From Escherichia coli (GTDB lineage Bacteria; Pseudomonadota; Gammaproteobacteria; Enterobacterales; Enterobacteriaceae): a DNA stretch of 64,000 nucleotides. A program made the translations under genes and the position numbers. Positions 24,789-25,988 of this stretch are shown here, one piece after another (position 1 is the first letter of the stretch; every line of letters starts with the position of its first letter). The DNA lies in NCBI RefSeq assembly GCF_011045215.1, contig NZ_CP049201.1; one strand, 5' to 3'. Under the pieces are notes generated by a model, which was not told where the DNA came from, did not search any database, and was given only the letters and a program-made list of their open reading frames with translations.

Positions 24789-25988
24789 CCTCTTTCTCCG
24801 GCTGCTTAAAAATTAAACATAATAAGGTGATAATAATATGATAAAAAGAAGTTTATAATGGTATATTAAGATGGTCAATAAAAAGGCAATCTGCGCGCTG
24901 TATAGTCATTCTGACAGGAAATGCAGGAGGAAGGGAAGGTAACCGGCTTCGTTATGCTGACAGGAATACCTGTTATCATGGAAGTGCACTCATGTGGCCG
25001 ACGTAGCTTAAGAGGATGGAAGAGTGGAGACTGCAGACAGGGGGTATTGAAAGGTAAACATGTTTCGCCCGCCAGCTGCACCGGGGGCCAGCATCACTTT
25101 TTTTACGTTGTAACCCGGTATGCATTCCGGCTTTGATGATTACAGTCAGAGGGCAGCAGACTGACGTTATTTAACCGGACAGAAAAATTATGGACACTGA
25201 AATATCGTCTGTTAATACCTCGTTTGTCGGTGTGGTATTCCCTGTATTACCGGCGTCACCGATAAAGAGAGTTATAAACGCCAGAAAGGTACCTCCTTTA
25301 TGCCGGGGAACACTTACGGAAAATGAAGTCTGAAAAGGAGCACAATGAAAAGAGGCGTGTCCCGTAAATATAACGAATCATCGCAGGATATACATTATCA
25401 GGTGATACCAGAGGGCATTAAACTGTCGCCACGGATAAGAATATACAACATTTCTGATAACAAAACATCATAACGTGTTTCAGATATGTTCCGGCATCAG
25501 TCTGACGGATATTATTTCCCGGTAAAACAAACCGGCTACTGTAACGGTTAACTGTATCTGCATAAATTATTTATGATGAAAGAACAGTATTACGGATTCA
25601 AATATCATCCTGTTTGCATTCAGGCGGACATTCCCGGATGCCGGAAAGAATATCCTGCAGGCTGAGTGAGTCTCTTCCACAGTGCCGGGATCGCTGTCGC
25701 CACGTACATATTGTCACCAGGATGGGTATGTACCGCAGCATGCCATTTCTGGTGAATAACCGCACCTGCACATTCAGTCTGCTGAGAACCTGGCGTGTAT
25801 CGGGCTGTAAAGAACATCCCTGTCCGTGGCTCCTCTGGTGGTGTTGCCTGCTCAGCAATGACAGGATGCCCTTAAGACGCCCGTCATGGCTCAGTATGAT
25901 GACGACGAACACGCTCTGCAGGTGAGCATGCGGGGCCGGGAGCATCATCATTTCCGTATTTTGTCACACCTTCCGGAAGCAACCGGCA

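What the first reader, a model, noticed from the sequence alone, without database searches (positions are those of the whole stretch)
24789..25597. About 0.8 kb AT-rich stretch without credible ORFs inside the island
Between the frameshifted gene and the ~200-aa gene there is roughly 0.8 kb with only short overlapping ORFs on both strands and several small hairpins. This is unusually long for an intergenic region in a compact operon and could hold a regulatory RNA, a decayed gene or a promoter region.
Basis: inference. Interest (0 to 1): 0.3.

Follow-up and report, generated by a model that had tools for sequence, protein, structure and literature searches.

The report
Promoter region plus decayed alpA relic
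The 0.8-kb gene-free stretch in this E. coli genomic island is real but ordinary: half is an old promoter region for the downstream operon and half is the unannotated, decayed remains of a small regulator gene (alpA) and its neighbour.

Summary
Window 24789-25597 has no ORF longer than chance allows, and nothing is annotated there in about 1,400 E. coli genomes that carry it. It is only moderately AT-rich (41.9% GC against 48.9%), and its hairpins are no more stable than in shuffled sequence.

The window is an E. coli chromosome with a CP4-44-like island. The gap lies upstream of a minus-strand operon: a 305-aa gene, a YeeP-like GTPase and Ag43.

Salmonella and Serratia relatives have the layout alpA <- ~420-nt spacer -> 305-aa gene. 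The gap's first ~400 nt is that spacer. It includes a deeply conserved core promoter with two 11-bp-spaced direct repeats (24816-24844).

From the ATG at 25190, on the plus strand, lies a frameshifted alpA relic (25190-25367). After it come traces of the 197-aa gene that follows alpA. A diverged E. coli lineage (strain F8) shows this more clearly. An intact alpA/200-aa copy lies tail-to-tail at 25989-26892.

There is no Rfam match, no folding signal and no conserved small ORF. Interest is low.

The parts
23870..24788 (-). 305-aa gene of unknown function (intact allele WP_000250228.1). Frameshifted in the window by a T10 run at 24642-24651, against T9 in the intact allele. It is the first gene of the 305-aa / GTPase / Ag43 unit that the gap precedes.
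24789..24860 (-). Short 5' leader, Shine-Dalgarno sequence and putative core promoter/operator of the 305-aa gene. Read on the minus strand: TTATCA (24844->24839), 17 nt, TATGTT (24821->24816). This overlaps two direct repeats, TATCAnnTTATTAT, 11 bp apart (plus-strand 24819-24832 and 24830-24843).
   Evidence: Repeats: (D3). Block invariant in Salmonella and Serratia. Retained in Edwardsiella and, as TTATATCCTTATTTTGTTT, in ~50%-identical homologues. The same site in strain F8 scores as a promoter (TTATCA-17-TATGAT with TG). In the window it falls below the scanner's 9/12 cutoff. Function is inferred.
24861..25189 (.). Rest of the ancestral divergent alpA/305-aa intergenic region, including the alpA 5' leader. 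It holds a degenerate palindrome AAACATGTTT (25056-25065; GTGAACATGTTCAC in relatives). It also holds the conserved element TTTTTTTACGT...CCGGTATGCATTCCGG (25098-25130) and a 30-nt block (25159-25188) identical in both E. coli lineages.
   Evidence: blastn at 72-75% identity to the spacer of L009, L010 and L012. Alignments. Coordinates. The 30-nt identical run has permutation p=0.0024.
25190..25367 (+). alpA pseudogene relic. The ATG at 25190 aligns with the alpA start. Residues 1-17 are in one frame; a 4-nt deletion puts residues 18-38 (the HTH part) in another. The TAA at 25365-25367 aligns with the alpA stop. Length is 178 nt against 207 nt for the intact gene.
   Evidence: DNA profile of leader+alpA+197-aa modules: E=3.4e-15. 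Coding part only: E=1.4e-3 at 4.7 bits, against a maximum of 3.5 bits in 600 shuffles. It is the best hit in the whole 64-kb window after the intact copy (E=0.03-0.04). Protein profile: E=0.012. tblastn alignments. The orthologous F8 segment scores E=1e-9 (DNA) and 3e-5 (protein).
25368..25597 (+). Decayed alpA/197-aa spacer and the 5' part of a 197-aa-gene relic. The relic continues to about 25720, beyond the finding.
   Evidence: In strain F8, L019 6389-6629 matches roughly codons 49-133 of the 197-aa gene (E=1.3e-6; E=2e-6). That stretch aligns with window ~25514-25720. The window itself gives no significant match (E=0.19 to 5), so this rests on homology carried through F8.
25598..25988 (.). 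Remainder of the gene-less spacer up to the stop of the 200-aa gene. It carries two 65-aa 'hypothetical proteins' annotated by PGAP (25620-25817 minus, 25886-26083 plus), which are probably not genes.
   Evidence: The region is unalignable between the window lineage and F8 (33-47% identity). The ORFs are annotated in some genomes and not in others. No family match.
25989..26892 (-). Intact 200-aa gene (25989-26591) and intact alpA (26686-26892). This is the functional copy of the module, lying tail-to-tail with the relic.
   Evidence: E=3e-298 to the module profile. Its own leader carries the same conserved element as the gap.

Best explanation
The stretch is non-coding and has two parts of different origin.

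Proximal part, about 400 nt (24789-25189). This is the old divergent control region that, in related islands, separates alpA from the 305-aa/GTPase operon. Its first ~70 nt most likely still serve as the promoter of the 305-aa gene. There, two 11-bp-spaced direct repeats overlap the -35/-10 hexamers. They are a plausible operator for the ribbon-helix-helix-like C-terminus of the 305-aa protein itself, which would give autoregulation.

Distal part (25190-25597 and on to about 25720). This is the decayed remains of the alpA gene and the 197-aa gene that once stood there, reading away from the 305-aa gene. They became redundant because an intact alpA/200-aa copy sits next to them in the opposite orientation.

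What is shown: the homologies, the frameshifts, the lack of coding or RNA-structure constraint, and the tolerance of IS insertions. What is inferred: promoter activity, operator function and the order of events.

The confidence of 0.75 is for the anatomy (ancestral control region plus alpA relic). The autoregulation step alone would rate about 0.4.
For: 1. Context. The window is an E. coli CP4-44-like island, and the gap is upstream of the 305-aa -> GTPase -> Ag43 genes on the minus strand.
2. Relatives. Islands from Salmonella, Serratia and other enterobacterial assemblies carry YagK <- 197aa <- alpA | 409-420 nt | -> 305aa -> GTPase.
3. Proximal homology. Window 24789-~25110 aligns with that spacer at 72-75% identity, and the alpA/200-aa module aligns in inverted orientation.
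4. Seamless continuation. The alignment runs through the alpA leader to the ATG at 25190.
5. Core promoter. The block is invariant across genera and recognisable in ~50%-identical homologues. It contains tandem repeats 11 bp apart.
6. alpA relic. Window: DNA profile E=3.4e-15 with leader and 1.4e-3 without; protein profile E=0.012. It is the top non-self hit in 64 kb, on the predicted strand and collinear with alpA.
7. Clearer relics in F8. A second E. coli lineage (strain F8, L019) carries an orthologous gap at 74-77% identity. Its relics score E=1e-9 and 3e-5 for alpA and E=1e-6 for the 197-aa gene.
8. No coding constraint.
   - Of 17 indels between the lineages, one is a multiple of 3.
   - The first 17 relic codons differ at 9 sites, 3 synonymous and 6 not (read).
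   - The adjacent 305-aa gene is 97% identical between the same two lineages.
9. Dispensability of the distal part. There is an IS1 insertion at 25552-25560 and an IS50R insertion at 25006-25014. E. coli B keeps only 24789-24941 together with an intact 305-aa gene.
10. RHH tail. The C-terminal tail matches RHH_1 over the full model at 14-18 bits.
Against: - The alpA signal in the window itself is weak once the leader is left out (4.7 bits).
- The 197-aa relic is not significant in the window. It rests on homology carried through strain F8.
- No transcription data were available, so promoter use is untested.
- The promoter scanner did not score the proposed hexamers in the window (8/12), and promoter-like sites were not enriched in the relatives' spacers.
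- The RHH assignment is below Pfam's threshold, and the structure model found no informative fold match.
- A 30-nt block (25159-25188), identical between otherwise diverged lineages (p=0.0024), hints at some remaining constraint that this account does not explain.
Confidence: 0.75

Rival explanations
1. The gap encodes a small regulatory RNA or a structured cis-acting leader. One example would be a transcript from the orphaned alpA promoter, running on the plus strand antisense to the 3' end of the 200-aa gene. Another would be a long structured 5' UTR from the minus-strand promoter-like site at 25215->25187.
For: - The alpA leader and start are retained, and the 30-nt block 25159-25188 is identical in two lineages that are otherwise ~70% identical.
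- The best promoter-like match in the region (10/12) is TTAACA-17-CATAAT on the minus strand at 25215->25187.
- The segment is kept at >=95% identity in ~1,400 genomes.
Against: - No Rfam family comes near its gathering score, even at E<=10.
- Folding z-scores on both strands are centred on 0.
- There is no terminator-like site inside the gap.
- The two lineages differ by 23-31% with 17 indels.
- IS insertions and truncations occur in the wild.
- High identity within the main lineage reflects recent spread of the island. The flanking genes are just as identical.
Confidence: 0.07
2. One of the short ORFs is a real small-protein gene. Candidates are 25190-25333 (47 aa, plus strand), 25345-25473 (42 aa, plus), 24921-25136 (71 aa, plus) and 24875-25081 (68 aa, minus). 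The 47-aa ORF could be a truncated AlpA-like peptide.
For: The ATG at 25190 and its upstream leader are conserved in both lineages, and each lineage keeps an ORF from it: 47 aa in the window and 51 aa in F8.
Against: - The two ORFs share only the first ~17 codons before a 4-nt indel changes frame, and changes there are mostly non-synonymous (6 of 9).
- No Pfam or NCBIfam match for any of the ORFs.
- ORF lengths are what random sequence of this composition gives.
- PGAP never calls them.
Confidence: 0.03
3. The whole stretch, promoter part included, is functionless relic DNA. The 305-aa/GTPase genes would be transcribed by read-through from the alpA/200-aa genes upstream on the same strand, or be silent under H-NS/Hha.
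For: - alpA, the 200-aa gene and the 305-aa gene are all on the minus strand in E. coli, so read-through is geometrically possible.
- The 305-aa gene is itself frameshifted in the window and truncated in many isolates.
- The island encodes an Hha-family protein and the proximal 112 nt are 31% GC. H-NS/Hha silencing of such DNA is established general knowledge and was not tested here.
Against: The core block next to the start codon is conserved across genera and in ~50%-identical homologues, far better than the rest of the spacer. In those relatives read-through is impossible, because the upstream genes point the other way. E. coli B retains just this proximal piece with an intact gene.
Confidence: 0.1
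4. The long AT-rich spacer is a cis-acting DNA site for the element. It could be an origin or nick site for the island's inovirus-Gp2/YagK-family (HUH-type) protein, by analogy with the filamentous-phage intergenic region.
For: A long non-coding region (409-999 nt) precedes the 305-aa gene in every relative. In three of them it abuts a Gp2/REP_ORF2-like gene.
Against: - No notable inverted repeats or folding signal.
- Outside the core promoter the long spacers of the distant relatives share no detectable sequence with the gap.
- In the window the Gp2 gene is about 2.9 kb away.
- IS insertions are tolerated.
This is pure analogy.
Confidence: 0.02

Closest known systems
alpA of E. coli K-12 cryptic prophage CP4-57 and the Phage_AlpA / HTH_17 family (PF05930, PF12728)
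   Same: The relic at 25190-25367 is collinear with AlpA from start codon to stop, including the helix-turn-helix part (ITGVTDKxxYK against LTGLTDKWFYK). It is preceded by the same leader as intact alpA genes of related islands. The intact alpA genes of the related islands carry the Pfam assignment; PGAP labels the window's own copy an AlpA-family/HTH regulator.
   Different: It is not a gene any more. It has a 4-nt deletion, further frame breaks and a net loss of 29 nt, and shows no purifying selection. That AlpA activates the integrase gene and excision in CP4-57 is my own knowledge (Kirby, Trempy and Gottesman, 1994) and was not tested here.
Divergent promoter/operator regions controlled by ribbon-helix-helix repressors (CopG, Arc, Mnt, ParG, and type II antitoxins)
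   Same: Tandem direct repeats one helical turn apart overlap the putative -35/-10. The first gene downstream encodes a protein whose C-terminus looks like an RHH domain.
   Different: The RHH match is below threshold. The protein is 305 aa with a large all-alpha N-terminal part of unknown fold. No binding or promoter data exist. The analogy concerns how it may work; membership is not established.
Unannotated pseudogene relics in E. coli genomic islands and cryptic prophages
   Same: Gene remains that are frameshifted and indel-ridden, recognisable only with profiles or through a less decayed lineage, and missed by automatic annotation.
   Different: Nothing unusual. The only particular point is that the relic and its intact counterpart lie tail-to-tail about 0.6 kb apart.
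IsrC (IS102), the small RNA of K-12 CP4-44 between yeeP and flu
   Same: A non-coding feature in the same island family (my own knowledge).
   Different: It lies downstream of the GTPase gene, not here. No Rfam family matched the gap, and within 20000-30000 only a weak MicL-like hit at 22471-22536 appeared.

Membership tests
alpA gene (Phage_AlpA / HTH_17) | Sequence similarity to AlpA proteins or genes | tested here: met
   Window: DNA profile E=3.4e-15 with leader and 1.4e-3 for the coding part only; protein profile E=0.012. F8 orthologue: E=1e-9 and 3e-5. Weak in the window but collinear and in the predicted place.
alpA gene (Phage_AlpA / HTH_17) | Intact reading frame of about 68 codons | tested here: not met
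   A frame change follows codon 17, there are stops in every frame, and the length is 178 nt against 207 nt. It is therefore a pseudogene relic, not a member gene.
alpA gene (Phage_AlpA / HTH_17) | Preceded by the family's conserved leader and followed by the 197/200-aa gene | tested here: met
   The leader aligns up to the ATG. Traces of the 197-aa gene follow in F8 (E=1e-6) and align with window ~25514-25720.
Known RNA families (Rfam 15) | Covariance-model score at or above the gathering threshold | tested here: not met
   The best matches inside or overlapping the gap score 15-20 bits against thresholds of 50-167.
Structured non-coding RNA in general | Folding energy lower than shuffled controls; compensatory changes between lineages | tested here: not met
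   z-scores range from -2.3 to +2.0 over 60 windows. Covariation cannot be tested with only two diverged lineages.
Sigma-70 promoter with RHH operator | -35/-10 hexamers with 16-18 nt spacing upstream of the gene | tested here: inconclusive
   TTATCA-17-TATGTT in the window is 8/12 and below the scanner's cutoff. The same site in F8 scores 9/12 with TG. It is conserved across genera.
Sigma-70 promoter with RHH operator | Repeated operator half-sites and a cognate RHH protein | tested here: inconclusive
   Direct repeats 11 bp apart. RHH_1 match at 14.2 and 17.7 bits against a 20.5 cutoff. No β-strand in the monomer model. Binding is not testable here.
Insertion sequence / MITE remnant | Terminal inverted repeats and copies at unrelated genomic sites | tested here: not met
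   No terminal inverted repeats. No second copy in the window. One copy per genome at the median, and always in this island context in the loci examined.
Protein-coding gene (any) | ORF longer than chance, a conserved frame, or a family match | tested here: not met

The most novel reading that the evidence does not exclude
The relic is not entirely dead. The retained alpA leader, with its 30-nt invariant block (25159-25188) and the overlapping minus-strand promoter-like site, may have been taken over as a cis-regulatory element. It could be a distal promoter or a binding site that couples expression of the 305-aa/GTPase/Ag43 operon to the island's AlpA or RHH regulator. Alternatively, the orphaned alpA promoter may drive a plus-strand antisense transcript into the convergent 200-aa gene.
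Probability: 0.1. Interest if true: 0.35.

Novelty: new member of a known kind. Interest (0 to 1): 0.15.

Why it matters
It matters little beyond annotation. The result explains why a 0.8-1.2 kb 'empty' stretch sits in a widespread E. coli island that carries Ag43, and it flags an unannotated alpA pseudogene. It also suggests that two 65-aa 'hypothetical proteins' annotated next to it are spurious. Finally, it points to a compact, deeply conserved promoter/operator (24816-24844) as the place to look for control of the uncharacterised 305-aa/GTPase module.

Tried and rejected
- Rfam scans at a permissive E-value found nothing.
- Pfam and NCBIfam scans of all gap ORFs of 42 aa or more found nothing.
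- blastn of the gap against plasmids returned only two large E. coli records (4.9 Mb and 0.83 Mb, apparently chromosomal sequence filed as plasmids). Phages gave nothing.
- The genome-contig scan with the 305-aa protein returned a single locus, from Serratia.
- tblastx of the gap against other cargo variants of the same slot (L005-L008) showed no relation.
- Plain blastn of the gap against the window does not detect the intact alpA copy. Profiles were needed.
- A protein profile of the 197/200-aa family against six-frame translations was not significant in either lineage.
- An apparent 'MKEQYY' match to the 200-aa N-terminus at 25576 was rejected. The F8 alignment puts that DNA at about codons 70-75 of the relic.
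- Profile search of the 305-aa family against PDB sequences gave no hit.
- Literature searches for the island's genes and for the protein accessions found nothing on this region.
- Promoter and terminator scans on the relatives were uninformative.

Full report
**Where the window comes from**

The region is E. coli chromosome. Window 23800-26700 matches hundreds of complete genomes at 99.9% identity. In annotated genomes it lies in a CP4-44-like island between cobU/asn-tRNA genes and yeeA-sbcB.

On the minus strand the order is:
- alpA (26686-26892);
- a 200-aa hypothetical gene (25989-26591);
- the gap;
- a 305-aa hypothetical gene (23870-24788, frameshifted in the window);
- a YeeP-like GTPase gene;
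- Ag43.

**Checking the observation**

The 809 nt contain no open frame beyond chance. The longest stop-free run is 73 codons, against 85 +/- 20 in simulated sequence of the same composition. Only 3% of equally long windows of the 64 kb are this poor in open frame.

No ORF matches Pfam or NCBIfam. NCBI's annotation pipeline (PGAP) annotates nothing there in any genome listed, and the segment occurs in 1,411 of 5,426 genomes, nearly all at >=95% identity.

The stretch is only moderately AT-rich (41.9% GC against 48.9%), and unevenly so. The hairpins are not special. Folding z-scores on both strands centre on zero, and no terminator-like site lies inside.

The gene-less stretch really runs to 25988. 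The two 65-aa ORFs that PGAP sometimes calls there lie in DNA that cannot be aligned between the two E. coli lineages, and they are annotated inconsistently.

**Comparison with relatives**

The 305-aa protein has a narrow family in Enterobacterales: 77-78% identity in Salmonella and close relatives, 68-69% in Serratia, and about 50% in Enterobacter, Edwardsiella and a second E. coli type.

In all loci fetched it is followed by the GTPase gene and preceded by a long non-coding region of 409-999 nt. Beyond that region the genes point the other way. In the closer relatives they are alpA, a 197-aa gene and a YagK/Gp2-family gene.

blastn aligns window 24789 to about 25110 with that spacer at 72-75% identity. 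It also shows that the E. coli alpA/200-aa module is inverted relative to the relatives.

The multiple alignment shows a nearly invariant block next to the start codon, and a second conserved block at the alpA end of the spacer. The core, TTATCACCTTATTATGTTT, is still recognisable in Edwardsiella and in the ~50%-identical homologues.

This core holds two direct repeats, TATCAnnTTATTAT, 11 bp apart. They overlap TTATCA-17-TATGTT, which in strain F8 reads TTATCA-17-TATGAT and is scored as a promoter.

The C-terminal 58 residues of the 305-aa protein match the full RHH_1 model at 14-18 bits, below the 20.5 cutoff. The functionally analogous 290-aa protein that occupies the same slot in other E. 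coli islands also matches RHH families at sub-threshold scores. An autoregulated promoter is therefore the most likely reading of the first ~70 nt. This is inference.

**The distal half**

Searching 25136-25665 alone turned up 23 genomes with a ~70%-identical version. In strain F8 the layout is the same, with a 1.26-kb gap and nothing annotated in it.

| Segment compared between the window and F8 | Identity | Indels |
|---|---|---|
| 305-aa gene | 97% | 1 (the window's frameshift) |
| Gap | 74-77% | 17, only one a multiple of three |

This is the pattern of non-coding or dead sequence next to a recombined gene.

Aligning the alpA upstream regions gave the key. The E. coli gap carries the alpA leader right up to an ATG at 25190, which aligns with the alpA start codon. 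The intact E. coli alpA has its own copy of the same leader. The arrangement is therefore a duplication of the module in inverted orientation, not a simple inversion.

**Evidence for the alpA relic**

| Test | Window | Strain F8 |
|---|---|---|
| DNA profile, leader + alpA + 197-aa modules | E=3.4e-15 | E=1.9e-22 |
| DNA profile, leader removed | E=1.4e-3 (4.7 bits; best of 600 shuffles 3.5) | E=1e-9 |
| Protein profile of AlpA | E=0.012 | E=3e-5 |
| tblastn with AlpA | residues 1-17 in one frame, 18-38 in another after a 4-nt deletion | residues 1-38 in one frame |

Further points:
- The hits lie on the plus strand, as predicted.
- Across the whole 64-kb window on both strands, 25222-25281(+) is the best hit after the intact copy (E=0.03-0.04).
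- The sequence GTCCCGTAAAT at 25359-25369 aligns with the alpA 3' end and stop.

**Evidence for the 197-aa relic**

In F8 a second hit (E=1e-6) covers roughly codons 49-133 of the 197-aa gene. That DNA aligns with window ~25514-25720. In the window itself the signal is not significant.

**Map of the finding**

| Coordinates | Content |
|---|---|
| 24789-24860 | core promoter and short leader of the 305-aa gene |
| 24861-25189 | rest of the ancestral control region, with the alpA leader |
| 25190-25367 | alpA relic (plus strand) |
| 25368-25597 | decayed spacer and start of the 197-aa relic |

**Dispensability of the distal part**

Natural variants fit this picture:
- IS1 sits at 25552-25560 in an ST131 strain (18044); two further genomes also carry IS1 within the distal part, insertion point not checked.
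- IS50R sits at 25006-25014 in a sheep isolate.
- E. coli B keeps only 24789-24941 with an intact 305-aa gene next to a truncated integrase.

**What remains unexplained**

A 30-nt block just upstream of the relic ATG (25159-25188) is identical in the two lineages (permutation p=0.0024). It overlaps the best promoter-like match of the region, on the minus strand. It may be a residual binding site or distal promoter, or a small conversion patch.

The conserved leader element CCGnnATnnnnACCGG-N6-ACGTAAAAAA has no known role.

**Verdict**

The stretch is real and now explained. It is an ancestral divergent promoter region fused to unannotated pseudogene relics.

- 'Regulatory RNA' has no support, but cannot be excluded without transcript data.
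- Nothing here departs from known kinds of sequence, so interest is low.

Noticed in passing
window 24642-24651: The frameshift that breaks the 305-aa gene is a T10 homopolymer, against T9 in the intact allele. Truncated versions of the protein are common in the database (for example a 237-aa form with 111 member sequences), so the run may be a slippage hot spot.
   Followed up: partly
window 25620-25817 (-) and 25886-26083 (+): Two 65-aa 'hypothetical proteins' (WP_001329788.1, WP_001333284.1) are annotated in some genomes and not in others. They lie in DNA that cannot be aligned between the two E. coli lineages, partly opposite the 197-aa relic. They are probably not genes.
   Followed up: partly
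window 23882-25988; loci L005-L008: The slot between the 200-aa gene and the GTPase gene varies among E. coli islands. It holds the 305-aa gene, or a 290-aa gene unrelated in sequence but with an RHH-like C-terminus, or YfjI, or ATPase pseudogenes with IS3/IS66. Breakpoints on the right fall at 25666, 25709, 25765 or 25973.
   Followed up: partly
window 25159-25188: A 30-nt block is identical between the window lineage and strain F8 inside an otherwise ~70%-identical gap (permutation p=0.0024). It overlaps a minus-strand promoter-like site, TTAACA-17-CATAAT (25215->25187).
   Followed up: partly
window 25056-25065; L009, L010, L012, L016 spacers: Salmonella and Serratia relatives carry a perfect 14-bp palindrome, GTGAACATGTTCAC, in the alpA/305-aa spacer. 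It looks like an operator. In E. coli it has decayed to AAACATGTTT, and further in F8.
   Followed up: no
window 25552-25560 and 25006-25014 (in other genomes): IS1 (ST131 strain 18044; two further genomes carry IS1 in the same 530-nt segment, site not checked) and IS50R (strain ECL27977) are inserted in the gap with 9-bp target duplications.
   Followed up: yes
window about 14800-16300, 32700-33700, 35400-36800: Other stretches of about 0.8 kb or more are as poor in open reading frames as the gap.
   Followed up: no
window 22471-22536 (-): Weak MicL-like Rfam match (20.9 bits against a gathering score of 56, E=0.016), which from the ORF list appears to fall between the GTPase gene and Ag43. 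This is the position where K-12 has the IsrC small RNA (my own knowledge).
   Followed up: no
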